DNA of 49,302 nt, taken from assembly GCA_018260615.1 (NCBI GenBank), contig JAGWDQ010000081.1, positions 1-49,302 on the forward strand, given 5' to 3'. Source of the stretch: Candidatus Altarchaeum sp. (lineage in GTDB: Archaea; Altiarchaeota; Altiarchaeia; Altiarchaeales; Altiarchaeaceae). Position 1 is the first letter of the stretch. Each line of letters starts with the position of its first letter. The translations under genes and the position numbers were made by a program. Below, in pieces: positions 13,167 through 30,499 of this stretch. The notes beneath the pieces are model-generated. The model worked only from the letters and a program-made list of their open reading frames with translations, did not search any database and was not told where the DNA came from.

Positions 13167-14264
13167 ATGACAAATATAAGGAAAATTGAATTTTTTGACA
13201 GGGAAAAGGAAAGAGGGGAAATCATGCAAATTTTAGAGTCAGAACCGCACTTGATAAACTTTATTTACGGGCCAATAAACAGCGGAAAGACATCTTTAAT
13301 AACAAATTTAATTGAAAATCTGCCTGAAAATTATGTTGTTTTTTATGTGAATTTAAGGAGAAAATCAATTATAAGATATGAGGATTTTATCAGGGTTTTA
13401 TTCGCAATTGAAGAAGGAGGATTCTTAAAAAAAATCAAAAATATTTTTACAAAGGTCTTAAAACATATCACTTCCACAGGAGAAAAGACATTATATAAAT
13501 CCCATGGAATTCCTGTGGATAAGAGTTTGCTTGAAACATTTTTCAAAGAAAAAAGTAATGAAGATGTGTTTAACTATCTTGTAGAATATTTTAAAAACAT
13601 TGCAAAACACAAAACGCCTGTTTTGGTAATTGATGAATTACAGATGATTGGCGATCTTGAGATTAATGGAAAACTGATTTATAAATTGTTTAACTTCTTC
13701 ATTGGCTTAACAAAAGAATTGCATATCTGTCATGTTTTTGCTTTATCATCTGATTCGTTATTTATTGAAAGGGTTTATGCCGAAGCAATGCTCGAAGGAA
13801 GGACAAACTATTTGTTAGTTGATGATTTTGATAAAGAAACCGCGAGAAAATTTTTGGAAAAATATAACTTCGGAGATACAGATATTGCTATTCAGTATTT
13901 TGGCGGGAAGCCGGGGGACTTAATAAAATTACTGGCACAAAATAAAGATATTACAATTTTCATGAAGGAAACGACTGATGAGAAAAAGCGTTTTTTGATA
14001 GACATGCTGGATGAATTATTATATGTAAAACCAAAAATAGAAATAGGAAAGGAGAAAATACCTGTTGAAAGGCACAAAATAATAGATGTGTTAAAGAAGT
14101 TTAAAGATAAAGAAGAAACAGAGGATGTGGAAATAAGCAGACCTGAGAAAATATATCTGGTTAATAGAAACATATTGTTTGTGAATTCAAAGAGCGGAAT
14201 AATAAAACCACAATCAAAAATCATCCTGACCGCGATAAGAGAAATTTTAAAGGAAATAAAATAA
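13167..14264 (+). CDS. Archaeal P-loop ATPase (ATPase_2/AAA-like), copy 1
   Basis: FFDREKE start, Walker A GPINSGKT, Walker B VLVIDELQ. Confidence 0.88.
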   Translation: MTNIRKIEFFDREKERGEIMQILESEPHLINFIYGPINSGKTSLITNLIENLPENYVVFYVNLRRKSIIRYEDFIRVLFAIEEGGFLKKIKNIFTKVLKHITSTGEKTLYKSHGIPVDKSLLETFFKEKSNEDVFNYLVEYFKNIAKHKTPVLVIDELQMIGDLEINGKLIYKLFNFFIGLTKELHICHVFALSSDSLFIERVYAEAMLEGRTNYLLVDDFDKETARKFLEKYNFGDTDIAIQYFGGKPGDLIKLLAQNKDITIFMKETTDEKKRFLIDMLDELLYVKPKIEIGKEKIPVERHKIIDVLKKFKDKEETEDVEISRPEKIYLVNRNILFVNSKSGIIKPQSKIILTAIREILKEIK

Positions 14265-16074: not shown

Positions 16075-16284
16075 TTATTTTGGATTATTTTTTAAAGTTT
16101 TATATAATCCGTCAGGCGAATATTTTATAATAAGTGCGCTATGGGGATACATCCGTTTGGCGTCATCCAGTAATTCATCAATATTGTTTCCCTTTAATAT
16201 TAGTGTGGTTATTTGTGCTTCATGTGCTTCATTTACCCATATTTCATATTCCTCATTTGTCTGTTGATTTACCTTTTCGTCCAT
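16075..16284 (-). CDS. 69-aa small protein, weakly DUF5678-like
   Basis: ILKGNNIDELLDDAKRMYP resembles the G..EEL...A...YP motif of the small proteins at 30562 and 31464. Confidence 0.65.
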   Translation of the reverse strand: MDEKVNQQTNEEYEIWVNEAHEAQITTLILKGNNIDELLDDAKRMYPHSALIIKYSPDGLYKTLKNNPK

Positions 16285-17741: not shown

Positions 17742-17756
17742 AAAATCAGAAGAATA

Positions 17757-17826
17757 CTCACACAAAGCCACAAAGTCACCAGGTTACAGAATATAACTCC
17801 TTTGTGTCTCTGTGTCTTGGTGTGAG
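17757..17826. repeat. REP-like imperfect hairpin built of cacaaag units
   Basis: ctcacacaaagccacaaagtcaccagg pairs imperfectly with cctttgtgtctctgtgtcttggtgtgag. Confidence 0.7.
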
Positions 17827-17921
17827 GGACCAAAAATAAAACGAACTTTCCTGTACGATAAAAAAAAAGAATGAAAAGAAATTTAAATTTATTAAAAAGT
17901 TATTAATCGTTTACTTTTAAA

Positions 17922-19118
17922 ATGGAAAAATATATGCAATGTATTGATTGCAAAGAGAGGTATGAGGAACAGCCGATATGCAGGTGCAAAAAATGTAACG
18001 GATTGCTGGAAATAAAATTTGAATTAAGTGCGGGTGACTTTGACCTGAAAAAAGCAAGAAAACAACGACTTAATTTATGGAGATATGCGGAATTAATTCC
18101 CGCAAAAAGGAATGTATCTTTAAATGAAGGTGGAACTCCTCTTTACGAATGCAAAAATTTAAGCGAGGACTTAAAGGTAAAGTTGTTTGTTAAAAATGAA
18201 GGTGCAAATCCTACGGGAAGTTTTAAAGACAGAGGTATGACTGTCGGCGTTTCCAAAGCAGTTGAATTCGGAAAGAAAATTACAACCTGCGCATCAACGG
18301 GAAATACATCGGCAAGTTTGGCTGCATATTCCGCAAGAGGAAATTTAAAATGTGTTGTCTTTATTCCTTCGGGAAAGATCGCTTACGGGAAATTAGCACA
18401 GGCACTGGTTTTCGGAGCAAAGGTTATATCAATTGAGGGAAATTTTGATAAGGCACTTGAAATTGTGTTTAAAATAAGCGACGGTGAAGGGATATATCTG
18501 CTTAATTCTATAAATCCTTATCGTTTGGAAGGACAAAAAACGCTCGGATTTGAAATTTTTGACGAATTAAATCATACTCCTGATAGAGTAATTTTGCCGG
18601 TCGGAAACGCTGGAAATATATCTGCGATATGGAAGGGATTTAAGGAATTTTACGAGCTGGGAATTGCCAGTGAAAAGCCGAAAATGACTGGTATTCAGGC
18701 GGAAAAAGCAATGCCAATAGTGAATATGTTTAAAAATAAGAGTGATTTTGTTCCCGAAAAGAATCCGGAAACAATCGCAACGGCAATAAGAATAGGAAAT
18801 CCCGTGAGCTGGAAGAAAGCAATTAATGCGGTTTATGAATCAAACGGATATATGGAATCGGTAAGCGACGAAGAAATTTTAAAGGCACAAAAATTATTAG
18901 CAAGGAAAGAAGGTATATTTGTTGAGCCGGCATCTGCATCATCAATTGCCGGACTGCTCAAATTAATTGATGAAGGAATTATTGATAAAGGCGAAGAAGT
19001 TGTATGTATCACGACAGGAAACGGATTGAAAGACCCGAATACAGTGGTTGATTCCTGCAAAAATGAAATAATTTATGCAAAGGAAGAAGAGATTGAAAAT
19101 TTAATAAAGAAAATTTAA
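17922..19118 (+). CDS. thrC: Threonine synthase
   Basis: KNEGANPTGSFKDRG (PLP Lys), CASTGNTSAS, PVGNAGNI, VEPASA; N-terminal zinc ribbon. Confidence 0.95.
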   Translation: MEKYMQCIDCKERYEEQPICRCKKCNGLLEIKFELSAGDFDLKKARKQRLNLWRYAELIPAKRNVSLNEGGTPLYECKNLSEDLKVKLFVKNEGANPTGSFKDRGMTVGVSKAVEFGKKITTCASTGNTSASLAAYSARGNLKCVVFIPSGKIAYGKLAQALVFGAKVISIEGNFDKALEIVFKISDGEGIYLLNSINPYRLEGQKTLGFEIFDELNHTPDRVILPVGNAGNISAIWKGFKEFYELGIASEKPKMTGIQAEKAMPIVNMFKNKSDFVPEKNPETIATAIRIGNPVSWKKAINAVYESNGYMESVSDEEILKAQKLLARKEGIFVEPASASSIAGLLKLIDEGIIDKGEEVVCITTGNGLKDPNTVVDSCKNEIIYAKEEEIENLIKKI

Positions 19119-19294
19119 ATAGGTGAAATTTTGAAAAATTTAATTAAAAAGCGGCAAAACATATAAACAACTGAGAAATTACACCTAAATTTAAAAAAAT
19201 TGCAGATATAGAAGAGGATGTATTTAATTATCTTAACTCATGTTTTTGAACCATTAAATTTAATTTCCGCATGATTTTAATTAACAATTCTTTT

Positions 19295-19465
19295 TTATCG
19301 GATGATGCGGCGAACAATCGGATATCCGTATTCTTCCCACAAACATCCGCAATCTTTGCATTCATAATACCGTCCTCCGTCATCGCCACCGGTTAGTGCG
19401 GTGTTAAAATTTCCACATCTCGGACAAGATACCTTGCCCATATAATTTAATGTTCTCTCCCGCAT
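19295..19465 (-). CDS. 56-aa zinc-ribbon microprotein (not in ORF track)
   Basis: MRERTLNYMGKVSCPRCGNFNTALTGGDDGGRYYECKDCGCLWEEYGYPIVRRIIR; CPRCG...ECKDCG. Confidence 0.75.
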   Translation of the reverse strand: MRERTLNYMGKVSCPRCGNFNTALTGGDDGGRYYECKDCGCLWEEYGYPIVRRIIR

Positions 19466-19492
19466 TTTTGTTTATTTCGATAATACCTTTGT

Positions 19493-20125
19493 TTATTTTA
19501 TTCCACATGACTTAAGCTTTTTCTCAACAACATCCCCATTCGGCGAAATTTCCGTAAATATAATTCCCTGAAATTTATAGATCTCTGTATCCTGCTTTAA
19601 ATAATCCCTAGCATTTAAGCCAGCTTTCATACATGTTTCTTCTAAAAATTCTTTTTTGTTCCAGTTCCATTCAACAGGAACCTGCGGAAGCAGTAATCCG
19701 CTTCTTGCACCTTTTCTAACTATCAGTCCGTCTCTTCCTGTTTCTATAAATTTTTCGTATTCGCCCGGCTTACATTTAATTAATTCCGGAGGTGTCAAAA
19801 CTGTAACTTCAAATGTAATTTTGTCCAATTCTTCTTTTTCCAGTGGTTCGAATCTCGGATCTTCATAAGCCGCATATAATGATGCCTTTTTTAAGCCCTC
19901 TATTAAAGGAAAAACCGGCTTGGGAAATCCGATGCATCCCCTCAATTCATGTTCCGGATATGTTTCAAGTGTTACAAAAACGCCGTATTTCTCTGAAAAT
20001 TTTTTTAAAATTTCTTCATCAGTATCTTCCTCAATTTCATCAGCTTTTTTATTTTCAAATGCCTTTTCTACGGTTTTTCTTGCGTATGTCACAAGAAATT
20101 TTCCCTCTTCTAAATTTATTTCCAT
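19493..20125 (-). CDS. AMMECR1-domain protein (AmmeMemoRadiSam protein A, TIGR00296-like)
   Basis: GVFVTL...LRGCIG, EDPRFEP, GRDGLIV, GLLLPQVPVEWNW, TCMKAGL. Confidence 0.93.
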   Translation of the reverse strand: MEINLEEGKFLVTYARKTVEKAFENKKADEIEEDTDEEILKKFSEKYGVFVTLETYPEHELRGCIGFPKPVFPLIEGLKKASLYAAYEDPRFEPLEKEELDKITFEVTVLTPPELIKCKPGEYEKFIETGRDGLIVRKGARSGLLLPQVPVEWNWNKKEFLEETCMKAGLNARDYLKQDTEIYKFQGIIFTEISPNGDVVEKKLKSCGIK

Positions 20126-20142
20126 TTTTCATACTTTGAATT

Positions 20143-20745
20143 TTATAAATTTTCCAAAATTTTTTCAAAATTTTTAAAACTTTTTGAATACCTAAAATGC
20201 TCTAATTTATTTCTTTTTGCAATTATTTTTCCATCCACTGTTTTATTATAAGTAGCATTAAGCTTTTTCCTATAATAATTTTCAAGTGTCTCCGATGGTT
20301 TTGTTACTTTATCCGGGTCCGGGTGATCTTTTATAATATTGTCAAAGCATCCAAACAACCATGCTTCAATCTCTTGCTTTGCGAAACACACTTGTATCCG
20401 GCAATCTTTTTTATTCTTTATTTTAATGTTTATCTTATCAATCTTACTTTTAAGCTCATCCTCCTCTTTCTTAGAGTTGTCATAATCTACGAGGAGGATT
20501 ATATTTTTATATTCTCCTATATCTCCATATACTGTTTTATCTATATACTTAAAAACCTGTGATTTACCACCTTTAGATGCTTTACTTGGTAAAAAAACAA
20601 AAAATTGAAAATTACCTCTGATAAATGTTTCTTTGGATTCTTCTTTTCTTTCTTGAAATCCTTCTTTTTCCAAAATCTCTTTAAGAATTTCTTCATCACT
20701 GTTTCCTTCAACAATTATTAAATTTTTTACAAAGTTTTGATTCAT
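20143..20745 (-). CDS. TOPRIM-like nuclease (DUF4276-like), copy 1
   Basis: IIVEGNSD, LVDYD (DxD) and EIEAWL motifs; directly downstream of the ABC ATPase. Confidence 0.75.
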   Translation of the reverse strand: MNQNFVKNLIIVEGNSDEEILKEILEKEGFQERKEESKETFIRGNFQFFVFLPSKASKGGKSQVFKYIDKTVYGDIGEYKNIILLVDYDNSKKEEDELKSKIDKINIKIKNKKDCRIQVCFAKQEIEAWLFGCFDNIIKDHPDPDKVTKPSETLENYYRKKLNATYNKTVDGKIIAKRNKLEHFRYSKSFKNFEKILENL

Positions 20746-20747
20746 TT

Positions 20748-22145
20748 TTAAACCCTCTTACTATAGTATGCTTCCCCCAAACTCATGCCGGATTTATCTA
20801 AAAACTCTGTTAATTTTTCAATATTTTTAATTCTCCTTGTCTTTGTTTCTCCTTTTTCTTTTTCAACAATTATTAGATCTTCCGGATCACAATAATCAAT
20901 AAAATAAGGTGAATGAGTAGAGATTATTATTTGTTTTTCTGATTTTTTTAAGAGCTCAAATATAAATTCAAGCAATCGCATATGAATATGGTTTTCCGGC
21001 TCTTCAAAACATAAGGTCTTGTTACTTGCAACCTGAATTGCTGTAATATGTGCCAATAATGATATTGTTCCGTCTGCTAATGTCCAAACCTGAAAATCAT
21101 TGTCAAAATTTTTTTCTTTTATCTTTAAATAGACCTTATTTCCTTCAACCACAGGTCTAATTTCTTCTATCCCTCCAATAACTCCGGAAAGCAATTCCTG
21201 AATTCTATCAAATTTTTTTCTATCTTCCTGTAAAAGATTTAACAAGACCAGTGAAAGATTATTTCCTTCTGTTTTTAAAACAACTGGCTTTTCAACAAAA
21301 GCATCCGGAATTTCTTTTTTTATTAGGTAAGGAACAAAGTTATATGTGGAAATTTTAACAGTATTAAAAAATTTAACAATTCCTTTAAGTCCTGTTTCAA
21401 TTATTTTTATTATATCTTCAATCTCATATTTTGCAGGTACGAACAATGATTGTCTGCCTTCTGACTTCTCCCCTGCAAATTCTTTAAAATTTTCTCTCTT
21501 AACGATGGATAAAAGCATATCTACTAAGGTTGTATGGATAGCTGAGTCCAAATTCACATAAAAAAATTCTGGGAAGAGCATGCGCATGGGAAATAGTTTA
21601 ACTGACAGTTGTCCGTTCTCATCTTTTTTTATGTTTTCTTTTATGGATAAGTCAATTTGCAGGAGCATTTCATTTTCTTTAGGAATACGCTTAAGCAAAC
21701 TTTTTCCAAATAACTTTGGACTTAAACGATAAGCATCTTCATATCCAAATTCAAATTCATTCCTAAAATTCTCGAATCCTTTTTGCTTTAATAATTCTTC
21801 CAGGTCCTTATTTTTTATTATCAATTTTTCGTCGTTTATTTTTATTTGTTCATATTTCCCGGATATACAAACATAATAAATGAATCTGAAATTATCTTCC
21901 TCACCTTCAGCCTCTATTTCAATATTGTTTTCATCATTTTTCCCAAAAACAACATTTTTATATCCTCCTCTTCTGTTAAATAAACTTTCTAAATTTTCAT
22001 TAAAGCCCTCACTTATAAAATTTAAAACATCAATTATGTTGCTCTTTCCGGAATTATTCGTTCCAATGAGAACATTAAATTTTCCAAATTCAATCTCAAA
22101 ATCCTTTAAAGAACGAAAATTTTTAACTTTTAGTCGTTTAAGCAT
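20748..22145 (-). CDS. ABC/SMC-like ATPase (AAA_15/AAA_21 type), copy 1
   Basis: NFRSL, Walker A GTNNSGKSN, signature LADGT, Walker B LCFEEPENHIH, H-loop ISTHSPY. Confidence 0.88.
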   Translation of the reverse strand: MLKRLKVKNFRSLKDFEIEFGKFNVLIGTNNSGKSNIIDVLNFISEGFNENLESLFNRRGGYKNVVFGKNDENNIEIEAEGEEDNFRFIYYVCISGKYEQIKINDEKLIIKNKDLEELLKQKGFENFRNEFEFGYEDAYRLSPKLFGKSLLKRIPKENEMLLQIDLSIKENIKKDENGQLSVKLFPMRMLFPEFFYVNLDSAIHTTLVDMLLSIVKRENFKEFAGEKSEGRQSLFVPAKYEIEDIIKIIETGLKGIVKFFNTVKISTYNFVPYLIKKEIPDAFVEKPVVLKTEGNNLSLVLLNLLQEDRKKFDRIQELLSGVIGGIEEIRPVVEGNKVYLKIKEKNFDNDFQVWTLADGTISLLAHITAIQVASNKTLCFEEPENHIHMRLLEFIFELLKKSEKQIIISTHSPYFIDYCDPEDLIIVEKEKGETKTRRIKNIEKLTEFLDKSGMSLGEAYYSKRV

Positions 22146-22183
22146 TTTAAATATTTTGTAGTTAATTTATTTAAATTTATAGA

Positions 22184-22530
22184 TTAAATTTTTAACTTCT
22201 CCCTTCTTATACCTTCATCTATTGCACAGTCCTCAAACCACTTTTCACCTCTTAAAATAGCATAAGCACTTATTGTGTGTTCCTCTGTTATTATCCCTTT
22301 ATCATGCAAAGACCACACAAAAGCAGGCGTTGAAATAACCTTTAATTTTAAAATTTCCCTATTTGTCCTGATTATTGCCTCATCGCTAATAATGTAATTA
22401 CAATTTCCGTTCAAAAAATGTGAAACAATTTCAAGTTCAATATTATATAAATAGGTACATATTGTATAATATCATTATTCTTATAAACCTTATCTGCTGA
22501 AAATTTTCCCGCATTTATTAAATATAATAC
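22184..22530 (-). pseudogene. Frameshifted 3' half of the PIN gene at 26385-27044
   Basis: NGNCNYIISDE..IRTNREILKLKVISTPAF nearly identical to the intact copy; upstream frame gives LYLINAGKFSADKV versus LNLINTGKISVEKV. Confidence 0.85.
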
Positions 22531-22774
22531 CTGTCTTTGAAAGATAATTAAATTTTTGACTAAATAAATCTTTTTCTGTGCCAGTTTTATATTTATTTTT
22601 GTATGTTCTTTTTTAAATTTTCTTGTCCCGTGCAAAATTTAATTAAAGTAAAGGTAAAGTTAAAGCCGGTTATTAATTATCGATATAGTGTGCTATTTAA
22701 TTATTTATATTTTTGCCAGCATTCCGCGGTTTCAGTATAAAATTTAAATTTTAAATCAGTTCATATCTATTGTT

Positions 22775-22801
22775 ATTTTCAAAACGCAAAGTTTTGAAAA
22801 T
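22775..22801. terminator. Hairpin downstream of the DprA-like gene (possible terminator)
   Basis: attttcaaaac-gcaaa-gttttgaaaat, 11-bp arms; a similar caaaac-ttc-gttttg lies at 12889-12903 after hicB. Confidence 0.4.
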
Positions 22802-22859
22802 ATCCGAACGATGTGAGGTTACAATATATTTTTAAAATTTTATATTTTTATATTTTTGG

Positions 22860-23828
22860 TTAAATCAATGTCATTTGAGTTGAATTTTGAGGTTGCTTTT
22901 TCTTTTTATCCTGACGAGACAATATCAGATTCCTTACATGATTCATTTCTGTGTTTATGAGTTCAATATCATCCTCGGTTTTAAAGACAATATCCGCCTG
23001 TTTTTTTGAAATCAGGTGTGCATTGCCCGCTGTGTTTTCATTTTTAACAGGATGCTGTAAAACAATAAGTGCGCGCTTTTGTTTCTTACAAAAATTTACA
23101 GTATGCATAGTTCCGCCCTTTATGCCTGTTTCAATAACAAATACACCAAGCGATAATCCGCTTTGAATCCTGTCCCTCATTATTAAATGCTCACGACTAA
23201 TCGTTGTTCCGTAAGGATATTCTGAAACGAGCGCACCATTATTTTTAATTATTATCTCTGCAAGTTCTTTGTTTTTAGCAGGATAAATAGTATCTAATCC
23301 ATGTCCCACGACTGCAACGGTTGTACCTTTAGCGCTTAATGCCCCCCGATGTGCTGCCGTATCTATTCCTTCTGCCAGACCGCTGACTATAACATAGTCC
23401 TTTTTTGCAAATATTTCTGCAATTTTTCCTGCCATCCTGATACCCTGCCCTGTTGGATGTCTTGTTCCTACAATCGCAATACAATTTTTATTCAGAGATT
23501 CAATATTCCCTAAAACATGTAATAATGCCGGCGGGTCTGAAATTTGTAAAAGGGCTTTCGGATAATATGTGCTTTCTTTTGAAATTATCCGAATGTTGTG
23601 TTGTTTTGATTGTCTTAATATCTCCCGGGACATGTTCCAGCCAATTGTGGCTTCTTGAAGAGTTGGAATGTATATTTTACCGAATTTTGCATTTGCTTTT
23701 TTAAGTATTTCTATCAAATTTGCCGGATTATTTGGTTTAGATGTATCAGGAAGAGAGAGAACTTTTTCTATTGTTTTTGGCCCTATATTGCGGGTTTCTT
23801 CCAGTGCAAGTATGTGTTCTACTTTCAT
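22860..23828 (-). CDS. DprA/Smf-like Rossmann-fold protein
   Basis: YPKALLQISDPP..L..LGN, IAIVGTR, IVSGLAEGIDTAAH, ALVSEYP, RDRIQSGLS, SGGT-like KGGT. Confidence 0.88.
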   Translation of the reverse strand: MKVEHILALEETRNIGPKTIEKVLSLPDTSKPNNPANLIEILKKANAKFGKIYIPTLQEATIGWNMSREILRQSKQHNIRIISKESTYYPKALLQISDPPALLHVLGNIESLNKNCIAIVGTRHPTGQGIRMAGKIAEIFAKKDYVIVSGLAEGIDTAAHRGALSAKGTTVAVVGHGLDTIYPAKNKELAEIIIKNNGALVSEYPYGTTISREHLIMRDRIQSGLSLGVFVIETGIKGGTMHTVNFCKKQKRALIVLQHPVKNENTAGNAHLISKKQADIVFKTEDDIELINTEMNHVRNLILSRQDKKKKQPQNSTQMTLI

Positions 23829-23854
23829 TTTAACTGCTTTTATTTTTAGTATTT

Positions 23855-24487
23855 TTATTCCGGCTGGGTCTTGCCAAGTGCGAGCAATGCAACTAATTCA
23901 CATCCGTATTGTTTTAGCACAAACATTCCGGCATTCAGTGATGTGCCGGTTGTTGTTACATCATCCACCAAAAGAATTTGTCTGTTTCTGATTATGCCTT
24001 CATCTGCAACAGTAAGCGATTTTATTTCTTCATCCTGATTTCGCTCACCGCCCAAATGCTTTTTAGATACGGTATATTTCCTTGATAAAATATCTGTTCC
24101 GTCAGTTATATTATTCCTCTTCAGGCATATTTGCCGGACAATTGTTCTGATGCCGGACTGATTTGTTCCCTTCCAGTGAGAAGGCATAACACATATAACA
24201 TATTCTGATGTATCTGAAAGAATGCCCGATAATTTATTTGTAAAGTATTTAATGGACTCTTTATAGTAGTACTTCTCATTCGTATTTGATAGCGATGTCT
24301 CGTCTTTTTTTATATCAAGTATTTTATTGGAAAACTCATCCATATCCTGAAATGGCTTGCCGTGTTTGGGATAATATTTGCCAACATATACTATCTTATC
24401 CGCCGGAATAAATTTATCTTCCGAACAATTTTGATGTGCCTCAACCAGGTTATTTTTTTCCTGCTCTTTGAATATTTGACATTGCAT
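23855..24487 (-). CDS. Type I phosphoribosyltransferase (ComF-like)
   Basis: PRPP loop ILLVDDVTTTGTSL; VMPSH motif. Confidence 0.85.
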   Translation of the reverse strand: MQCQIFKEQEKNNLVEAHQNCSEDKFIPADKIVYVGKYYPKHGKPFQDMDEFSNKILDIKKDETSLSNTNEKYYYKESIKYFTNKLSGILSDTSEYVICVMPSHWKGTNQSGIRTIVRQICLKRNNITDGTDILSRKYTVSKKHLGGERNQDEEIKSLTVADEGIIRNRQILLVDDVTTTGTSLNAGMFVLKQYGCELVALLALGKTQPE

Positions 24488-24519
24488 TTTTTCTTATGCG
24501 TTTTTATTTTGTTTTAAAT

Positions 24520-24576
24520 TTATTTTAACTTCACTCTTCTTATACATTCATCAATGATGTAGTCGTTAAACCATTT
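24520..24576 (-). pseudogene. 57-bp 3' stub of the PIN gene
   Basis: KWFNDYIIDECIRRVKLK* versus KWFEEWAIDECIRRVKLKI* at the end of 26385-27044. Confidence 0.8.
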
Positions 24577-24584
24577 TTGATTTT

Positions 24585-25148
24585 TTAAATTTTATATAAA
24601 TTTTCCAAAATTTTCCTGAATTCTTTAAAACTTTTTGAATGTTCAAAGTGCTTCAATTCGTTTTTTCCCGCTATTTTTTGTCCATCTACAGTTTTATTGT
24701 ATGTAAATTCATTATTTTTTTCTTTCTTTTTTATACATTTTTCAAGTAATTTTACCGGGTCTGATACATTATCCGGTTCTTCATTTTTTGCTTCTTTTAA
24801 TGAGTCATCATAACATCCGAGAAGCCATGATTCTATTTCCTGCTTTGCAAAATGCAAATAAATTTTCATCTGCGGATTTTGACGCTGTATTTCATCCTTT
24901 CTCGTTTTGAATTTTTCCGCCCAATCTTCAGAATTGTCATAATCAACAAGAAATATTATACATTTATATCTGTAAGAAAATTTTGACACTAATTTTTGCA
25001 TATTTTTGCATAACTGGTCTTTTCCTCCCGAATGTGCAGTTGGCAATTTAATGTCATCATCTTCTATATTTATATTTAACTTTTCGAAGATTTCTTTCAA
25101 AATTTTACGATCACTTTCTCCTTCAACAGCGATGCCAAATTTATTCAT
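24585..25148 (-). CDS. TOPRIM-like nuclease (DUF4276-like), copy 2
   Basis: IAVEGESD, LVDYD and EIESWL; C-terminal YNKTVDG..IA..N.L.HF..SKSFK shared with copy 1. Confidence 0.75.
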   Translation of the reverse strand: MNKFGIAVEGESDRKILKEIFEKLNINIEDDDIKLPTAHSGGKDQLCKNMQKLVSKFSYRYKCIIFLVDYDNSEDWAEKFKTRKDEIQRQNPQMKIYLHFAKQEIESWLLGCYDDSLKEAKNEEPDNVSDPVKLLEKCIKKKEKNNEFTYNKTVDGQKIAGKNELKHFEHSKSFKEFRKILENLYKI

Positions 25149-26307
25149 TTTTTAATTCATCACTAAAATAACTTTCTCCCAGGGTTATTCCAATTTCATC
25201 TAATTCTTCCCTTAATTTTTTTGGGTCGTTTATTCTTTTTGCTTTTGTTTCTCCTTTCTCCTTTTCAACAATTATTATATCCTCCGAATCGCATAAATCA
25301 ATGAAAGACAGCGAATGAGTTGTAACTATAATTTGTGCATCTGTGTTTTTCATCAAATCAACAATAAATTCAAGCAATCTTGCATGTATATAATTTTCCG
25401 GTTCTTCAAAACAAATAATGCTTTGTTTCTTGGATGTTTCTATTATTGTAATGTATGAAAGTAGTGAAATTGTACCTTCTGATATGCTTCCCGAATAAAA
25501 GGACTCATTAAAATTTTTATCTTTCATCTTTAAGTAGCAGTATGGTCCTTCAATTGTCGGAACAAATTCATCAATCTCATCAACAACCCCGGAAAGAAGT
25601 TCATTAATCCTGCCCAGTTTTTTCCTGTCATTTTGAGACAAACTTAATAAAAATAACGGAATATTTTTACACTCTTTATCTAATTGTAGATTTTTCTCAA
25701 CAAAAACCTCATTAATTCGAGGTTTTATATTGTAAGGAACTATTTTATAATATCTAACATTATAAAGTATTGTATAAAAGAATGCCCCTAAAATACCCAT
25801 CGTATACTCTTCTGCTGTCATTCTTTCTGTTTCTTCAATCTGTTTTTTAATTTCTTCTATTTTGCTTTTTCCATCTATGAGCGGATATTCTTTGATATTT
25901 TGTTTGCCAAATAAATATAATCTTTTGTTTTCCGATTTTGGAAATCTTTCTTTTTCACCATTATTTTTTTGAATTTCTAATTTTTCCTCAACGGGATTTT
26001 CCATACTATATTCCCCGTCAAATTTCAGGTAATAATCAAACAAAAAATTGTCTTCATAAAAATCCTCTTCAAATATTGCATTTATTTCAATATTATTTGC
26101 AGTATTTTTACCAAAAACAACATTCTTATAACCTCCTCTCTGTTTAAAGCTATTGGAAGTAGTTATTCCATCATTCAGGAAGCTTAAAACATCAATTATA
26201 TTGCTTTTTCCGGTATTATTTCTTCCTATCAGAACATTAAATTTTCCAAAGACGACTTCAAAGTCCTTTAAAGAACGAAAATTTTTAACTTTTAATTTTT
26301 TAAGCAT
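25141..26307 (-). CDS. ABC/SMC-like ATPase, copy 2 (start moved from 26430 to 26307)
   Basis: MLKKLKVKNFRSL start matches copy 1; Walker A GRNNTGKSN, ISEGT, ICFEEPENYIH, VTTHS. Confidence 0.85.
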   Translation of the reverse strand: MLKKLKVKNFRSLKDFEVVFGKFNVLIGRNNTGKSNIIDVLSFLNDGITTSNSFKQRGGYKNVVFGKNTANNIEINAIFEEDFYEDNFLFDYYLKFDGEYSMENPVEEKLEIQKNNGEKERFPKSENKRLYLFGKQNIKEYPLIDGKSKIEEIKKQIEETERMTAEEYTMGILGAFFYTILYNVRYYKIVPYNIKPRINEVFVEKNLQLDKECKNIPLFLLSLSQNDRKKLGRINELLSGVVDEIDEFVPTIEGPYCYLKMKDKNFNESFYSGSISEGTISLLSYITIIETSKKQSIICFEEPENYIHARLLEFIVDLMKNTDAQIIVTTHSLSFIDLCDSEDIIIVEKEKGETKAKRINDPKKLREELDEIGITLGESYFSDELKNE

Positions 26308-26384
26308 TTTAAATATTTTAAATTTATATGATTTTGTATCGTAATTTATATTTTTGATAATTATATTTTCAGTTAGATTTAATT

Positions 26385-27044
26385 TTAAATTTTTAACTTC
26401 ACTCTCCTTATACATTCGTCTATTGCCCATTCCTCAAACCATTTTTCACTTCTTAAAATAATATAAGCATCTATCGCATGCTCCTGCGTTATCATCTTTT
26501 TAACAAATAAATTTAATACGAAAGCCGGAGTTGAAATAACTTTTAATTTTAAAATTTCTCTGTTTGTCCTGATGAGCGCATCATCCGAAAGTATAAAATT
26601 ACAATTTCCGTTCAGAAAATGCGAAACAATTTCAAGTTCAACCTTATACAATCCACACAACATAATGTCTTTATTTACTGATACCTTTTCTACCGAAATT
26701 TTTCCCGTGTTTATTAAATTTAAGATAATATGTGCTTCCGGCTCGTTGTCCTTTTTTTGTCTCTCAATTTCATCTGCAAGCAAAGGAGTTAGAACTATAT
26801 TGTAAAAATTTATTGCATCTTCAATTATTCCAGTCTTCGTTAATAGCAGCAAAGCAATTCCGTCAATACAAATTTTACTTCTGGTTTTGTTGTCAAAATA
26901 TTTAACTTCTTTCCCAATTTCTTTTATTCCTTCATCTTCAACATTTGCCTTTATTTCTGCTTTCCGGTTTTTATTACTTTCTATTCTGCTTTCCTCTTCA
27001 GGCATTCTTTTTAATATGTTAAACAGACATCCGAAATTAGCCAT
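26385..27044 (-). CDS. PIN-domain protein (DUF3368/COG2405-like)
   Basis: ICID, ADEI, VELE and ILSDDA acidic positions; C-terminal VISTPAFVLNL..K.MI motif. Confidence 0.7.
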   Translation of the reverse strand: MANFGCLFNILKRMPEEESRIESNKNRKAEIKANVEDEGIKEIGKEVKYFDNKTRSKICIDGIALLLLTKTGIIEDAINFYNIVLTPLLADEIERQKKDNEPEAHIILNLINTGKISVEKVSVNKDIMLCGLYKVELEIVSHFLNGNCNFILSDDALIRTNREILKLKVISTPAFVLNLFVKKMITQEHAIDAYIILRSEKWFEEWAIDECIRRVKLKI

Positions 27045-27246
27045 TGTAATTTTAGTTATTAAATAAATTATAAATTTCTATCCTTCTTTTTTCTTATTTT
27101 TTTAGCATATATATTGTGACAATAGATGAATTTAAAAATCAAAATTGATTTGTATATATTGTGATGGTATGGAGCAACAATTTACGATGGTGTGACCATG
27201 CTCAAACAAAATTTTTTTTGATTCTTCAGCCATTTTTTACCTGTTG

Positions 27247-27263
27247 TATATTGCTACAATATA
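27247..27263. promoter_or_regulatory. 7-3-7 palindrome, candidate operator
   Basis: TATATTG-CTA-CAATATA; related ATATTG-TGA-CAATA at 27111-27124. Confidence 0.4.
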
Positions 27264-27283
27264 TAAGCATATTATTTTTGCTA

Positions 27284-27530
27284 AACGAATGTTTTTATTT
27301 CGCTAATTTTCTGCTATTTTAAAGTAATTATTTTTTGCGTTAAGCAAAATAAAAATGTTATAATAAACGAAAATAATTTATTCGCTAAATTTATTGTTTT
27401 AACGAAAGTTTTTATTGCGTTAAATATTTGTATCTTAACGAAAGTTTTTGTTTCGCCAATTAATTATTTTTTAACGAAATAATTTTTTGCGTTAAAAGTT
27501 ATGATTTTTAACGAAATAATTTTTTGCCTT
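27284..27530. repeat. Degenerate palindromic tandem array, ~36-bp period
   Basis: aacgaa cores at 27284, 27366, 27401, 27437, 27473 and 27510; best unit ttaacgaaataattttttgcgttaa. Confidence 0.8.
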
Positions 27531-27649
27531 TCTAAATTTAATTTTTCTAATCTTAAAGATAATTTTTTCTAAAATTAATTTGTAAAATTAATTTGTAATA
27601 AAAAATTAAGTTTTTTTAGAAAATATAAAAAACATCATTCAAATAAAAA

Positions 27650-30499
27650 ATGTCCATCCAAAAAATTAAACAAATCCGGAAAGGTGTATGGGAGATTGAG
27701 AATAAACCGGTTCCAATCAGAATTTACGGAACTGAAAAGATAGTTAATGCAATGGAAGAAGATGTCATAAATCAGGCGAGAAATGTTTCCCAGCTCCCAG
27801 GAATTGTGAAAGCAAGTTTAGTCATGCCTGACGGACATAAGGGATATGGGTTTCCGATTGGAGGGGTTGCGGCATTTGATATGGAAAAAGGAATAGTCAG
27901 CCCTGGCGGTGTGGGATATGACATCAACTGCCTTTCGGGAGATACAAACATATTATGTGAGCATGGATATTATGTTAAAATAAAGGACTTTGAAGAAAAC
28001 CGGAGGGGGAAAAGTTTGATATCTTATGATCTTTCTAAGGGATATTCAGAAGTTACCTCTATCAAAAAATTTATTAAATTTAAACCGAAAAATTCGGTCT
28101 ATAAAATTATTACAAAAAGCGGAGAGGAAATAACTGCTACTGAAGATCATCCGTTCTGGACTCCGAAAGGAATGCTCGAGGTAAAGAACTTAAAAATCGG
28201 AGAAAAACTCGGAATGGAGCATTTTAAAGGCGTTCCTTATGAAGAACCAGGTGCTCAAGAAATATTAAATGAGAATAAAATTAAGGAAAATCTTATTATT
28301 TTGGAAAAGACATTTCGGGGAAACACTATACAACAGGTAATGGCACAGTTAAAAAAAATAAAAATTTTGCCTTTAAAATACAACTCGCCGCAACTTCCAT
28401 ATTTATTAAAAATAATTGGCTTTATGCTTATTGGAGGATGTCTTTATTTTGAAAATAAAAAGGGGAACGGAATTGTTGTTTTTTACGGAGAGCGAGAGGA
28501 TTTGGAGGAAATGAGGAAGGATATTTTGAAACTCGGATTTACTCCTGAATTTGAAAAGGAACTCATTATGAAGGTTGTCAGTAATTCGTTTGCCGCTTTA
28601 TTATTTTCTCTGGGTGTGCATATGGGTAGAAATGTTGAAGGAGGATATGAAATTCCTTCGTGGATTCTTAAATCGAAATTATGGCAGAAGAGGTTATTTC
28701 TTGCGTCGTTATTTGGGGCGGAAATGTCATTTCCGAGAGTAACAGGTAATAATTTTAGCCCTCCGTACCTTTTCGTGAGTAGATCAAAAAAATTTGAAAA
28801 GAATGGGAAAATTTTTATGCTCCAAATCACCGATCTTCTTTCAGAATTCGGCATAAAGACACAAAAACCCGGAGGGGGTGAGAGCAGTATGCAATTTAAA
28901 ATAATGGTTTCAGACGACATAAAAAATTTGAGCAATTTTTATGAGACCATAAATTTTGAATACAATAGATCCAAAAGAAACGAAAGTAATGCTATTGTTC
29001 AGTATTTAAAGATAAAGGATAAGGTTGTCAGGGAAAGAGAAGAAAAAGCAAAAATTGCGAAGGAACTTTATAAAAACGGCAAAAGCCCGTCTGAAATTTA
29101 CTCTATGCTGGTTTCGGAGTATGTTTGTAAGGGCTTTTTAGAGCAGTCCCTCTATAGGAGAAGAAAAGGAAATCCAAGAGTTCCTAAAAATTTTGAGGGT
29201 TATGAGAAGTATGGGAAGGAAATAATGGATGGCAAAAAAGGATATGTTTGGGATGAGATTGCAAAAATTGAAAAAGTAAATTTTAATGACTTTGTTTATG
29301 ATTTTACAGTTGAGCACAAAGATCATAATTTTATTGCGAATAAATTTATTGTATCTAACTGTGGCGTCCGGCTTTTAACAACCCCTTTAACCGAACAGGA
29401 CATAAAGCCGCGGTTAAAAATTTTAACAGACGAATTATACCAAAATATCCCGAGCGGTGTCGGAAAAGGCGGAATTTTGAAGTTAGGCATTGACAAGATA
29501 GATGAAGTCGGGAGATTAGGTGCAAAATGGGCAATAGAAAATGGTTACGGAATTAAACAGGACTTAAATTTTACGGAAGAGGACGGATGTATTGATGATG
29601 TGGATACAGGCAAGGTTTCCCAAAGAGCAAAGATGAGAGGAAGGGACCAGCTTGGAACATTAGGAAGCGGAAATCACTTTCTTGAAATCCAGAGGGTTGA
29701 GGAAATTTATAATGAAGACATAGCGAAAAAATTCGGACTGTTCAAAGGACAGATAACTGTAATGGTTCACTGCGGAAGCAGGGGATACGGCCATCAGATT
29801 TGTGATGATTATATTAAAATTTTGCTTTCTGCAACAAAAAAATACGGTATAAATTTGCCTGACTGGGAACTGGTCTGCGCTCCGTTAAATTCAAAGGAAG
29901 GGAATGATTATATTAAAGCGATGCACTGCGGTGTCAATTATGCTTTTTGTAACAGGGAAATGATAACGCACTGGATTAGAGAGACATTTGAAAATTTAAA
30001 ATTTAATATTGACCTGAAACTTGTGTATGATGTTTGCCACAACATAGCAAAATTTGAGAAGCACAAAGTTGATGGTGAAGAACGGTTGTTATGCGTTCAC
30101 AGGAAAGGTGCGACAAGGGCATTTGCAGCAGGAAGAAGTGAAATTCCGGAGAGTTACAGAAATGTGGGGCAGCCGGTAATTGTGCCCGGAAGTATGGGAA
30201 CATCGTCTTATGTTTTGGTAGGAACAGAAAAGGCAATGGAAGAGACATTCGGAAGCGTATGTCACGGTGCGGGCAGGGTTATGTCAAGGGCGGGAGGAAT
30301 AAGAACATGGAGGGGCGAAGATATAATGAAAGAAATGGAAAGGAAAGGACAGGTGATAAAGTCGGCCTCTCTGAAGGTTTTGGCAGAAGAACATCCGGGT
30401 GTTTATAAGGATATAGATGAAGTTGTAAAGAGTGTTGAACTGGCAGGATTAAGTAAATTAGTGGCGAAGGTTGTGCCTTTGGGAATTATAAAGGGGTAA
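27650..30499 (+). CDS. rtcB: RtcB RNA/tRNA-splicing ligase with intein
   Basis: MPDGHKGYGFPIGG, GGVGYDIN|C...N|CGVRLL, GTLGSGNHFLE, VHRKGATRAF, HGAGR. Confidence 0.95.
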   Translation: MSIQKIKQIRKGVWEIENKPVPIRIYGTEKIVNAMEEDVINQARNVSQLPGIVKASLVMPDGHKGYGFPIGGVAAFDMEKGIVSPGGVGYDINCLSGDTNILCEHGYYVKIKDFEENRRGKSLISYDLSKGYSEVTSIKKFIKFKPKNSVYKIITKSGEEITATEDHPFWTPKGMLEVKNLKIGEKLGMEHFKGVPYEEPGAQEILNENKIKENLIILEKTFRGNTIQQVMAQLKKIKILPLKYNSPQLPYLLKIIGFMLIGGCLYFENKKGNGIVVFYGEREDLEEMRKDILKLGFTPEFEKELIMKVVSNSFAALLFSLGVHMGRNVEGGYEIPSWILKSKLWQKRLFLASLFGAEMSFPRVTGNNFSPPYLFVSRSKKFEKNGKIFMLQITDLLSEFGIKTQKPGGGESSMQFKIMVSDDIKNLSNFYETINFEYNRSKRNESNAIVQYLKIKDKVVREREEKAKIAKELYKNGKSPSEIYSMLVSEYVCKGFLEQSLYRRRKGNPRVPKNFEGYEKYGKEIMDGKKGYVWDEIAKIEKVNFNDFVYDFTVEHKDHNFIANKFIVSNCGVRLLTTPLTEQDIKPRLKILTDELYQNIPSGVGKGGILKLGIDKIDEVGRLGAKWAIENGYGIKQDLNFTEEDGCIDDVDTGKVSQRAKMRGRDQLGTLGSGNHFLEIQRVEEIYNEDIAKKFGLFKGQITVMVHCGSRGYGHQICDDYIKILLSATKKYGINLPDWELVCAPLNSKEGNDYIKAMHCGVNYAFCNREMITHWIRETFENLKFNIDLKLVYDVCHNIAKFEKHKVDGEERLLCVHRKGATRAFAAGRSEIPESYRNVGQPVIVPGSMGTSSYVLVGTEKAMEETFGSVCHGAGRVMSRAGGIRTWRGEDIMKEMERKGQVIKSASLKVLAEEHPGVYKDIDEVVKSVELAGLSKLVAKVVPLGIIKG
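27929..29359 (+). mobile_element. 477-aa intein with LAGLIDADG-type endonuclease domain
   Basis: Starts CLSGDT; block B TEDHPF; ends VYDFTV..HNFIANKFIVSN; +1 residue Cys; block E-like FLASLFGAE. Confidence 0.93.

What the first reader, a model, noticed from the sequence alone, without database searches (positions are those of the whole stretch)
20143..27044. Duplicated PIN - ABC ATPase - TOPRIM three-gene module (PARIS/OLD-like with an extra RNase)
Two ATPase+TOPRIM pairs keep all catalytic motifs, have conserved ends, and differ strongly in the ATPase middle region (465 versus 388 aa). Each is headed by the same PIN gene (intact once, frameshifted once). ABC ATPase + TOPRIM is the established architecture of PARIS (AriA/AriB) and split OLD nucleases. 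A dedicated upstream PIN with no visible antitoxin, and an archaeal context, are not part of those descriptions as I know them. The variable inserts may be alternative viral-trigger sensors.
Basis: partly seen in the sequence, partly recalled or inferred. Interest (0 to 1): 0.7.

Follow-up and report, generated by a model that had tools for sequence, protein, structure and literature searches.

The report
Stacked defence cassettes beside a PIN gene
The two ATPase-plus-nuclease gene pairs are real, but each is an ordinary two-gene candidate anti-virus module (PADLOC HEC-01); the PIN gene in front of them is not part of the module, it only marks the edge of a variable spot in Altiarchaeum genomes where different defence cassettes are inserted and, in this genome, stacked.

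Summary
Two intact ABC-ATPase + DUF4276/TOPRIM pairs lie on the minus strand (26307-24585 and 22145-20143). They are 42-43% identical, with conserved ends and an unalignable ATPase middle. Both match the PADLOC candidate HEC-01 (E 1e-49 to 1e-53), not PARIS. The 219-aa upstream ORF is a real PIN protein of the DUF3368/COG2405 kind.

The second PIN copy is more than frameshifted: it is a remnant holding only the last ~115 codons. A third 67-nt PIN stub precedes a Shosta pair (ShosT+ShosA) that sits between the two modules.

The three-gene reading fails its own refutation test.
- The PIN gene occurs with Shosta alone (2 genomes), directly next to AMMECR1 with nothing between (1 contig), and with no defence genes (more than 10 contigs).
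- Seven other loci carrying the ATPase-TOPRIM pair have no PIN upstream. Two of those assemblies carry the PIN elsewhere.
- The two pairs are not sister copies in a small tree.

The region is a PIN|AMMECR1 defence hotspot with three cassettes stacked, each keeping a piece of the PIN 3' end. Four independent assemblies show part or all of the same arrangement. This scan has noted HEC-01 pairs before on other DNA. The pairs are a new member of a known kind, of modest interest.

The parts
26385..27044 (-). PIN-domain protein of the DUF3368/COG2405 kind, 219 aa. Residues 1-53 are disordered and Lys/Glu-rich; the PIN domain is residues 57-219. It is the conserved left flank of the hotspot, not a module component.
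   Evidence: No Pfam hit in my scans; the collection's precomputed hit is PF11848, weak. AF2 model has pLDDT above 90 for residues 58-219. Top Foldseek PDB hits are mostly PIN/VapC proteins, TM 0.55-0.63 on the target. D61, E92, E136 and D154 are conserved in 17 sequences. Weak PADLOC PDC-S70 hit, E 2.8e-4.
25141..26307 (-). HEC-01A-type ABC ATPase, copy 1 (388 aa from the Met at 26307).
   Evidence: PADLOC HEC-01A E 3.4e-49; Pfam AAA_21 and AAA_15 above threshold. Motifs invariant. Nearest relative is the L051 ATPase, 65% identity.
24585..25148 (-). HEC-01B-type DUF4276/TOPRIM protein, copy 1 (187 aa). Its start overlaps the end of ATPase1 by 8 nt.
   Evidence: Pfam DUF4276 43.2 bits (cut-off 30.2); PADLOC HEC-01B E 2e-9. 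Glu and D-Y-D conserved.
24523..24589 (-). 67-nt stub of the PIN gene 3' end, starting right at the TOPRIM1 stop and lying in front of ShosT.
   Evidence: Repeat family D4. tblastn match to PIN residues 184-218 with 2 stops. It is 88-90% identical to the PIN 3' end of the Shosta-only genomes and 81% identical to this genome's full PIN.
23855..24487 (-). ShosT (phosphoribosyltransferase) of a Shosta system.
   Evidence: PADLOC ShosT E 1.1e-19; Pfam Pribosyltran. Collinear with L024 and L014 at ~89% nt.
22860..23828 (-). ShosA (DprA-like) of a Shosta system.
   Evidence: PADLOC ShosA E 1.6e-76; Pfam DNA_processg_A E 2e-65.
22184..22527 (-). Dead remnant of a PIN gene: the last ~115 codons, with a 5-nt indel that shifts the frame and no N-terminal half.
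   Evidence: D1 and D12, 76-80% nt; 75% aa over residues 131-219.
20748..22145 (-). HEC-01A-type ABC ATPase, copy 2 (465 aa).
   Evidence: PADLOC HEC-01A E 1e-53. About 92% nt identical to the pair next to AMMECR1 in the A3 lineage, which has no PIN.
20143..20745 (-). HEC-01B-type DUF4276/TOPRIM protein, copy 2 (200 aa).
   Evidence: Pfam DUF4276 53.5 bits; PADLOC HEC-01B E 2.6e-9. Interrupted by a ~147-nt inverted-repeat element in sister strains.
19493..20125 (-). AMMECR1 gene, the conserved right flank of the hotspot.
   Evidence: Pfam AMMECR1 E 7e-54. It is adjacent to ShosA in L024 and L014, to the PIN gene in L036, and to the TOPRIM gene in L046-48.

Best explanation
The region is a defence-gene hotspot between two conserved Altiarchaeum genes: a solitary DUF3368-type PIN gene and AMMECR1. 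In this genome three independent cassettes are stacked there. They are HEC-01 copy 1, Shosta, and HEC-01 copy 2.

Each HEC-01 cassette is a self-contained two-gene unit, an OLD/SMC-type ABC ATPase followed closely (8-nt overlap in copy 1, 2-nt gap in copy 2) by a small DUF4276 TOPRIM nuclease.

The mechanism is inferred by analogy with PARIS, OLD and Gabija; it is not shown. The ATPase would hold the nuclease inactive and sense infection through its variable middle insert. On triggering, the metal-dependent TOPRIM nuclease would cut host or viral nucleic acid and stop the infection.

The PIN gene is not a component of the module. The PIN fragments in front of the second and third cassettes are scars of how cassettes arrive. 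Incoming DNA recombines through homology in or near the PIN gene and joins illegitimately on the other side. This buries the 3' end of the earlier PIN copy.
For: HEC-01 identity:
- PADLOC HEC-01A E 3.4e-49 and 1e-53. These are far better than AriA (1e-28 to 1e-29), AbiLi, mad3 or Old.
- HEC-01B E 2e-9 and 2.6e-9. Pfam DUF4276 scores above the gathering cut-off.
- Catalytic motifs are invariant.

The pair stands alone:
- Seven other loci carry it between unrelated housekeeping genes with no PIN upstream: L046-48, L033, L034, L049/50, L051/52 and L053/54. The seventh, L032, ends inside the ATPase, so its upstream side is unseen.
- tblastn with the PIN protein on L032, L033, L034 and L035 (the G002 contig that L048 also represents) found nothing significant.
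- Assemblies GCA_018260835.1 and GCA_017973875.1 carry both the pair and the PIN gene, on different contigs.

The PIN gene stands alone:
- RtcB|PIN-ShosT-ShosA-AMMECR1 in L024, and the same with a fused ShosTA in L014.
- PIN directly followed by AMMECR1 in L036.
- PIN followed by convergent GT2/SPFH genes in more than 10 contigs.

Stacking:
- The window is collinear with L024 at ~89% nt, apart from two insertions that each bring PIN 3' sequence.
- The stub carries the PIN 3' signature of the Shosta-only genomes. The full PIN switches from 93-97% identity with L024 to 76% in its last 60 nt.
- The two ATPases are not sisters in the tree.
- L055 and L056 (JGI 3300029891, GCA_017973855.1) carry the whole stacked arrangement. 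L057 (ERZ27239245) ends after ShosA and L058 (GCA_002841095.1) inside TOPRIM1, so they confirm only the left part.
Against: - No function has been shown for HEC-01. The published E. coli test gave no protection against the phages tried (10.1101/2024.01.29.577857).
- Both HEC-01 cassettes here carry collinear PIN-3'/spacer/ATPase-5' sequence at about 80% nt identity. PIN-HEC-01 adjacency therefore existed in both source arrangements, and a lineage-specific functional link cannot be excluded.
- The recombination route is inferred from junction anatomy and a few reference genomes, not observed.
- All comparison genomes are metagenome assemblies.
Confidence: 0.75

Rival explanations
1. One reading: PIN, ABC ATPase and TOPRIM form one three-component system in which the PIN RNase is a second effector, duplicated as a unit.
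For: - Both pairs are preceded by PIN sequence with a conserved spacer.
- ATPase+PIN systems do exist, such as HEC-03.
- The PIN gene has no visible antitoxin here.
Against: - PIN and the pair are unlinked in every other genome examined, including two assemblies that hold both.
- The copy in front of HEC-01 copy 2 is a dead fragment while that pair stays intact.
- The same PIN 3' fragment also precedes the unrelated Shosta cassette.
Confidence: 0.06
2. An in-place tandem duplication of a PIN-ATPase-TOPRIM unit, followed by divergence and later insertion of Shosta, rather than stacking of separately acquired cassettes.
For: - The order PIN 3' end, spacer, ATPase, TOPRIM is the same in both copies.
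- The PIN-3'/ATPase-5' block is ~76-80% nt identical.
Against: - ATPase1 is sister to L051 from another locus (98/97 support, 65% identity). ATPase2 is sister to the A3-lineage pair (100/99, 89%). The two window copies share only 42%.
- Related genomes hold Shosta alone or HEC-01 copy 2 alone next to AMMECR1.
- The stub matches the PIN 3' end of the Shosta-only genomes.
Confidence: 0.12
3. The stacked arrangement is a metagenome assembly artefact that joins strain variants of one locus.
For: The genome is a 148-contig MAG. Contigs of relatives often end right after the PIN gene, as expected at a strain-variable site.
Against: - The full arrangement, with its unique junctions, recurs at 97-99% nt identity in JGI 3300029891 and GCA_017973855.1. 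ERZ27239245 and GCA_002841095.1 cover part of it.
- The repeats are only ~80% identical, too diverged to cause mis-joins.
Confidence: 0.02

Closest known systems
HEC-01 (Hma-embedded candidate 01; PADLOC-DB v2; Payne et al., bioRxiv 10.1101/2024.01.29.577857)
   Same: Two adjacent genes: an ABC ATPase (AAA_15/AAA_21) and a small DUF4276 TOPRIM protein with the OLD-type metal site. Both window pairs hit the HEC-01A and HEC-01B models best.
   Different: - The pairs are not embedded in an Hma system.
- They are in Altiarchaeota, present twice as two diverged lineages in one hotspot.
- The family itself has no demonstrated defence activity.
PARIS (AriA ABC ATPase + AriB TOPRIM; PMC11464382)
   Same: An ABC ATPase of the AAA_15/21 group paired with a separate TOPRIM nuclease. 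It gives a plausible working model: an ATPase scaffold that releases a nuclease.
   Different: - AriB is a DUF4435/OLD-type TOPRIM of about 35 kDa. The partner here is a 187-200-aa DUF4276 protein with no AriB hit.
- The AriA models score far below HEC-01A.
- The PARIS paper treats DUF4276-linked ATPases as a separate branch of the AAA15/21 tree.
MADS MAD3/MAD4 and AbiL/RloB-type ATPase-TOPRIM pairs
   Same: Weaker hits to mad3/mad4, AbiLi and RloB. DUF4276 and RloB have been described as Toprim-superfamily members with Glu and DxD (PMC12065111).
   Different: NCBIfam MAD3 scores 91-111 bits against a cut-off of 420. RloB is below the Pfam threshold. No methylation genes are linked.
VapC-like PIN toxins of the DUF3368/COG2405 kind, with an RHH-like partner
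   Same: The 219-aa protein has the PIN fold and conserved acidic residues. Its distant 163-168-aa relatives in other Altiarchaeota sit next to a ~100-106-aa partner whose sequence looks RHH-like by eye; no family search was run on the partner.
   Different: The Altiarchaeum version has no adjacent partner gene. It carries a 55-aa disordered N-terminal extension instead.
Shosta (ShosT PRTase + ShosA DprA-like; PADLOC ShosT/ShosA models)
   Same: The two genes between the HEC-01 cassettes match ShosT (E 1.1e-19) and ShosA (E 1.6e-76).
   Different: The host is an archaeon. In congener G003 the two genes are fused into one 545-aa ORF.

Membership tests
HEC-01 (PADLOC candidate) | ABC ATPase matching the HEC-01A models | tested here: met
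   E 3.4e-49 (copy 1) and 1e-53 (copy 2), the best of 91 and 111 PADLOC hits. Walker A, Walker B and H-loop are invariant.
HEC-01 (PADLOC candidate) | Adjacent small TOPRIM/DUF4276 protein matching HEC-01B, with the Glu and DxD metal site | tested here: met
   HEC-01B E 2e-9 and 2.6e-9. Pfam DUF4276 43.2 and 53.5 bits against a cut-off of 30.2. E13, D87 and D89 are invariant. Copy 1 has an 8-nt overlap and copy 2 a 2-nt gap with the ATPase gene.
HEC-01 (PADLOC candidate) | Protection against viruses | not testable with these tools
   The published E. coli assay found no protection for HEC-01.
PARIS (AriA/AriB) | AriB-type TOPRIM partner (DUF4435 / OLD-like TOPRIM, ~300 aa) | tested here: not met
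   No AriB hit at E<=0.01 in PADLOC. Pfam gives DUF4276. OLD-like_TOPRIM scores 21.3 bits, below its 23.2 cut-off, for copy 1 and is absent for copy 2.
OLD nucleases (class 1/2) | ATPase and TOPRIM in one polypeptide | tested here: not met
   They are two separate ORFs in both copies and in all relatives. Only the N-terminal 44 residues match the solved OLD protein 6p74.
   None of 7 other pair-bearing loci has a PIN; six show other genes upstream, and one contig (L032) ends inside the ATPase. None of 4 other PIN contexts has the pair. Two assemblies hold both, unlinked.
PIN domain (DUF3368/COG2405 kind) | PIN fold with conserved acidic active-site residues | tested here: met
   AF2 pLDDT above 90 over residues 58-219. 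Top Foldseek hits are mostly PIN/VapC proteins, though E is only ~2e-3. D61, E92, E136 and D154 are conserved.
PIN domain (DUF3368/COG2405 kind) | Match to the Pfam PF11848 model | tested here: inconclusive
   My hmmscan found nothing even at E<=10. The collection's precomputed table lists PF11848, marked weak.
Type II toxin-antitoxin pair (VapBC-like) | Adjacent small antitoxin gene | tested here: not met
   No ORF of antitoxin size lies next to the PIN gene on its strand. Distant relatives do have a ~100-106-aa partner.
Shosta | ShosT PRTase plus ShosA DprA-like, adjacent | tested here: met
   E 1.1e-19 and 1.6e-76.

The most novel reading that the evidence does not exclude
The last ~70-340 nt of the PIN gene may act as the homology anchor through which Altiarchaeum strains exchange defence cassettes. 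Because the far join is illegitimate, each arrival would add to the resident cassette instead of replacing it. The result would be an additive defence hotspot with no integrase, whose history can be read from the nested PIN 3' stubs.
Probability: 0.35. Interest if true: 0.5.

Novelty: new member of a known kind. Interest (0 to 1): 0.3.

Why it matters
- It removes a false lead. There is no new PIN-ATPase-TOPRIM system here.
- It places two diverged HEC-01 pairs and a Shosta system in Altiarchaeota, an uncultivated subsurface archaeal group.
- It documents, with empty, singly occupied and triply occupied states, a defence hotspot between two conserved archaeal genes. The nested PIN fragments give a readable record of how cassettes accumulate.
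- Such occupied and empty states are useful for population-level study of virus defence turnover in archaea, and for picking natural allele sets of HEC-01, whose trigger and target are still unknown.

Tried and rejected
- Complex prediction of ATPase1 against the PIN domain (residues 55-219) gave 'no answer' (score 0.02, mark 0.32). I do not use it as evidence either way.
- The AF2 model of ATPase2 was poor (mean pLDDT 53.9; residues 121-285 below 50). I ran no fold search on it and make no structural claim about the variable insert.
- The search for related loci in genome contigs with the TOPRIM alignment recovered only the three Altiarchaeales loci already known. The back-translated patterns were too specific for a wide archaeal census.
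- The sequence search of solved structures found no relative of the DUF4276 protein.
- The bacterial-type promoter and terminator scan was uninformative in this AT-rich archaeon: 46 sites found against 41.5 expected.
- Rfam found nothing in 19000-28000.
- Site-specific integration at a fixed att site inside the PIN gene is rejected. The three junctions lie at different PIN positions: about 70 nt, about 344 nt and, in the A3 lineage, about 9 nt before the stop.
- The 5-nt frameshift indel in the remnant is not the site of the inverted-repeat insertion seen in sister strains; the two lie about 10 nt apart.
- The signal that the ATPase 5' end was homogenised between the two copies is weak: 0.76 nt identity to copy 2 against 0.73 to L051. 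I do not press it.


Full report
**What is in the sequence**

All genes of the finding lie on the minus strand. In reading direction they are:

| Feature | Coordinates | Size |
|---|---|---|
| PIN-like ORF | 27044-26385 | 219 aa |
| ABC ATPase 1 | 26307-25141 | 388 aa |
| DUF4276/TOPRIM 1 | 25148-24585 | 187 aa |
| PIN 3' stub | 24589-24523 | 67 nt |
| ShosT (phosphoribosyltransferase) | 24487-23855 | 210 aa |
| ShosA (DprA-like) | 23828-22860 | 322 aa |
| Non-coding stretch with a dispersed hairpin repeat | 22859-22528 | ~330 nt |
| PIN remnant | 22527-22184 | ~344 nt |
| ABC ATPase 2 | 22145-20748 | 465 aa |
| DUF4276/TOPRIM 2 | 20745-20143 | 200 aa |
| AMMECR1 | 20125-19493 | 210 aa |

- ATPase 1 has 388 aa when started at the Met that aligns with residue 1 of every relative. 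The longest ORF has 429 aa and overlaps the PIN gene.
- RtcB, which contains an intein, is divergent upstream at 27650-30499.
- Names attached to close homologues place the genome in Candidatus Altiarchaeum / Altiarchaeales.

**Check of the observation**

- The two ATPases are 42% identical by BLASTP and the two TOPRIM proteins 43%.
- Sliding windows show a well conserved N-terminal ~90 residues (54-87% aa), a middle that does not align, and a moderately conserved C-terminal ~180 residues. The middle is residues ~90-205 in copy 1 and ~90-285 in copy 2.
- Five related pairs share these motifs without exception:
  - In the ATPases: Walker A (G-x-N-N-x-G-K-S), Walker B (C-F-E-E-P-E) and the H-loop (T-H-S).
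  - In the TOPRIM proteins: the Glu, the D-Y-D motif and a further conserved Glu.
- The 'frameshifted PIN' does not stand as described. Only the last ~344 nt align with the intact gene, at 76-80% nt. A 5-nt indel shifts the frame, and nothing upstream aligns in any frame. The remnant therefore lacks the part that carries the conserved D61 and E92.
- A third PIN fragment of 67 nt begins exactly at the TOPRIM 1 stop and precedes ShosT.

**What the proteins are**

- Both ATPases hit the PADLOC HEC-01A models best (E 3.4e-49 and 1e-53). Both small proteins hit HEC-01B (E 2e-9 and 2.6e-9) and exceed the Pfam DUF4276 gathering score.
- AriA, AbiLi, mad3, GajA and Old models score much lower. No AriB model is hit. 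NCBIfam MAD3 is far below its cut-off.
- HEC-01 is described by Payne et al. (bioRxiv 10.1101/2024.01.29.577857) as an ABC ATPase plus a TOPRIM protein with the OLD-type metal site. It gave no protection against the phages tried in E. coli.
- DUF4276 has been described as a Toprim-superfamily member with Glu and DxD (PMC12065111). The PARIS paper lists it among the partners of AAA15/21 ATPases, separately from AriB (PMC11464382).
- The two genes between the modules are a Shosta pair: ShosT E 1.1e-19 and ShosA E 1.6e-76.

**The 219-aa protein is a PIN protein**

- Pfam gave no hit in my scans.
- A 17-sequence alignment conserves D61, E92, E136 and D154.
- The AlphaFold2 model is confident for residues 58-219 and disordered for residues 1-53.
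- Its best Foldseek matches in the PDB are mostly PIN/VapC proteins (1y82, 5h4g, 2mdt, Utp24/Fcf1, Nob1). Target TM-scores are near 0.6, but E-values are only about 2e-3.
- Close homologues number 13, and those that carry a name are Altiarchaeales.
- Distant relatives of 163-168 aa in another family of the phylum sit next to a ~100-106-aa protein. By eye it looks like a ribbon-helix-helix partner, which is the usual toxin-antitoxin layout.
- The Altiarchaeum protein has no such neighbour.

**Is the PIN gene part of the module?**

PIN contexts elsewhere:

| Locus or lineage | Arrangement |
|---|---|
| L024 (GCA_000821205.1) | RtcB, PIN, ShosT, ShosA, AMMECR1, PALP; collinear with the window at ~89% nt |
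| Congener G003 (L014) | PIN, one fused ShosT-ShosA ORF, AMMECR1 |
| L036 (PIN 60% identical) | PIN directly followed by AMMECR1: an empty site |
| P0004 and P0005 lineages (more than 10 contigs) | PIN followed by convergent glycosyltransferase and SPFH genes, no defence genes |

ATPase-DUF4276 pairs elsewhere. None of these loci has a PIN beside the pair; the L032 contig ends inside the ATPase, so its upstream side is unseen:

| Locus | Arrangement |
|---|---|
| A3 lineage (L046-48) | Formyltransferase, pair (92% nt to copy 2), AMMECR1 |
| G052 (L033) | NAD(P)H-hydrate dehydratase, pair, PheRS |
| G023 (L034) | PurL/PurQ, pair, PCNA |
| G002 contig 18 (L032) | Diverged pair near DUF166 |
| L049/50 | HA-domain protein, pair |
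| L051/52 | Pair followed by an HD-domain protein |
| L053/54 | HisF-like protein, pair |

- tblastn with the PIN protein on L032, L033, L034 and L035 (the G002 contig that L048 also represents) found nothing significant.
- Assemblies GCA_018260835.1 and GCA_017973875.1 hold both the PIN gene and the pair on different contigs.

**What the PIN fragments mean**

- Relative to L024, the window has two insertions.
- The first holds HEC-01 copy 1. It lies between a full PIN and the 67-nt stub.
  - The stub is 88-90% identical to the PIN 3' end of the Shosta-only genomes and 81% identical to the window's own full PIN.
  - The full PIN drops from 93-97% identity with L024 to 76% in its last 60 nt. 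There it resembles the L015 type (55/60) and the remnant (52/60).
  - So the resident PIN 3' end stayed with Shosta, and a foreign 3' end came in with HEC-01 copy 1.
- The second insertion lies between ShosA and AMMECR1. It holds ~330 nt with dispersed repeats, the 344-nt PIN remnant, a spacer and HEC-01 copy 2.
- In the A3 lineage the same cassette abuts AMMECR1 with only the last ~9 nt of PIN in front.
- The ATPase tree has 8 rows and a midpoint root.
  - Copy 1 groups with L051 (98/97 support).
  - Copy 2 groups with the A3 lineage (100/99 support).
  - The two window copies are therefore not a recent duplication.
- The simplest reading is a PIN|AMMECR1 hotspot with empty, Shosta and HEC-01 states, and three cassettes stacked here. 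Each cassette arrived with some donor PIN sequence as its left flank.
- The junctions lie at three different PIN positions. This argues for homology-anchored plus illegitimate recombination rather than a fixed attachment site. This step is inference.

**The arrangement is not an assembly artefact**

- Two independent assemblies, JGI 3300029891 and GCA_017973855.1, carry the whole arrangement at 97-99% nt identity.
- ERZ27239245 covers it up to ShosA. GCA_002841095.1 covers PIN, ATPase 1 and part of TOPRIM 1.
- The two full-length sister contigs differ by four insertions of ~105-147 nt, from two repeat families. One of them splits TOPRIM 2.

**How it most likely works**

- Shown:
  - Each HEC-01 cassette is a two-gene unit; copy 1 has an 8-nt overlap and copy 2 a 2-nt gap.
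  - The ATPase and TOPRIM catalytic residues are intact.
  - The variable part is the ATPase middle region plus parts of the TOPRIM protein.
- Inferred from PARIS, OLD and Gabija:
  - The ATPase sequesters and regulates the nuclease and senses infection.
  - The TOPRIM nuclease then cuts nucleic acid.
- The target (tRNA or DNA) and the trigger are unknown. The only published test of the family was negative.
- The PIN protein is probably an independent RNase-type gene, with a weak hit to the PADLOC single-gene candidate PDC-S70.

**Verdict**

- The pairs are new archaeal members of a catalogued candidate family. This scan has already noted HEC-01-type pairs on other DNA.
- The proposed three-gene system is not supported.
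- The hotspot and its nested PIN scars are the part worth keeping.

Noticed in passing
window 22772-22821: A ~50-nt element with a 12-bp hairpin (TATTTTCAAAAC...GTTTTGAAAATA) sits between ShosA and the PIN remnant. More than 60 copies are scattered over the genome, including head-to-tail arrays with a 47-nt period on contig C111. It is one copy of a genome-wide dispersed repeat of unknown role.
   Followed up: partly
L055:11465-11604, 13584-13688, 13864-14010, 16123-16269 (sister strain); window 17742-17865: Sister strains 97-99% identical to the window carry four extra insertions of ~105-147 nt in this island, from two repeat families. One family has inverted ends (GTTGCGAAATA...TATTTCGCAAC) and looks like a miniature transposable element. 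One copy splits TOPRIM 2 into a 142-aa ORF. A copy of the other family lies in the window at 17742-17865.
   Followed up: partly
L014:1681-3318 (congener G003): ShosT and ShosA are fused into a single 545-aa ORF: PRTase at the N-terminus, DprA-like at the C-terminus.
   Followed up: no
L051:2150-5059 and L052:2103-5012: The closest relative of HEC-01 copy 1 is followed, 8 nt downstream on the same strand, by a 391-aa HD-domain protein in two different contigs. This may be a three-gene variant of the pair.
   Followed up: no
L007-L013 (other Altiarchaeota genomes): Distant relatives of the PIN protein (163-168 aa) are each paired, with 4-nt overlaps, with a ~100-106-aa protein that starts M-K-x-I-S/C-I-R-L-D-E-K-T-L-K-K. 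It looks like a ribbon-helix-helix antitoxin.
   Followed up: partly
L025, L037, L041, L042: Several metagenome contigs end within ~150-250 nt after the PIN gene, as expected if the region downstream varies between strains in those samples too.
   Followed up: no
window 27282-27541: The divergent PIN/RtcB intergenic region holds four to five ~36-nt units of the form TTAACGAAA...TTGCGTTAA (repeat families D6 and D7).
   Followed up: no
window 27650-30499: The RtcB gene (949 aa) carries an intein, judging by the Pfam RtcB / Intein_splicing / RtcB pattern of its 952-aa orthologue in L024.
   Followed up: no
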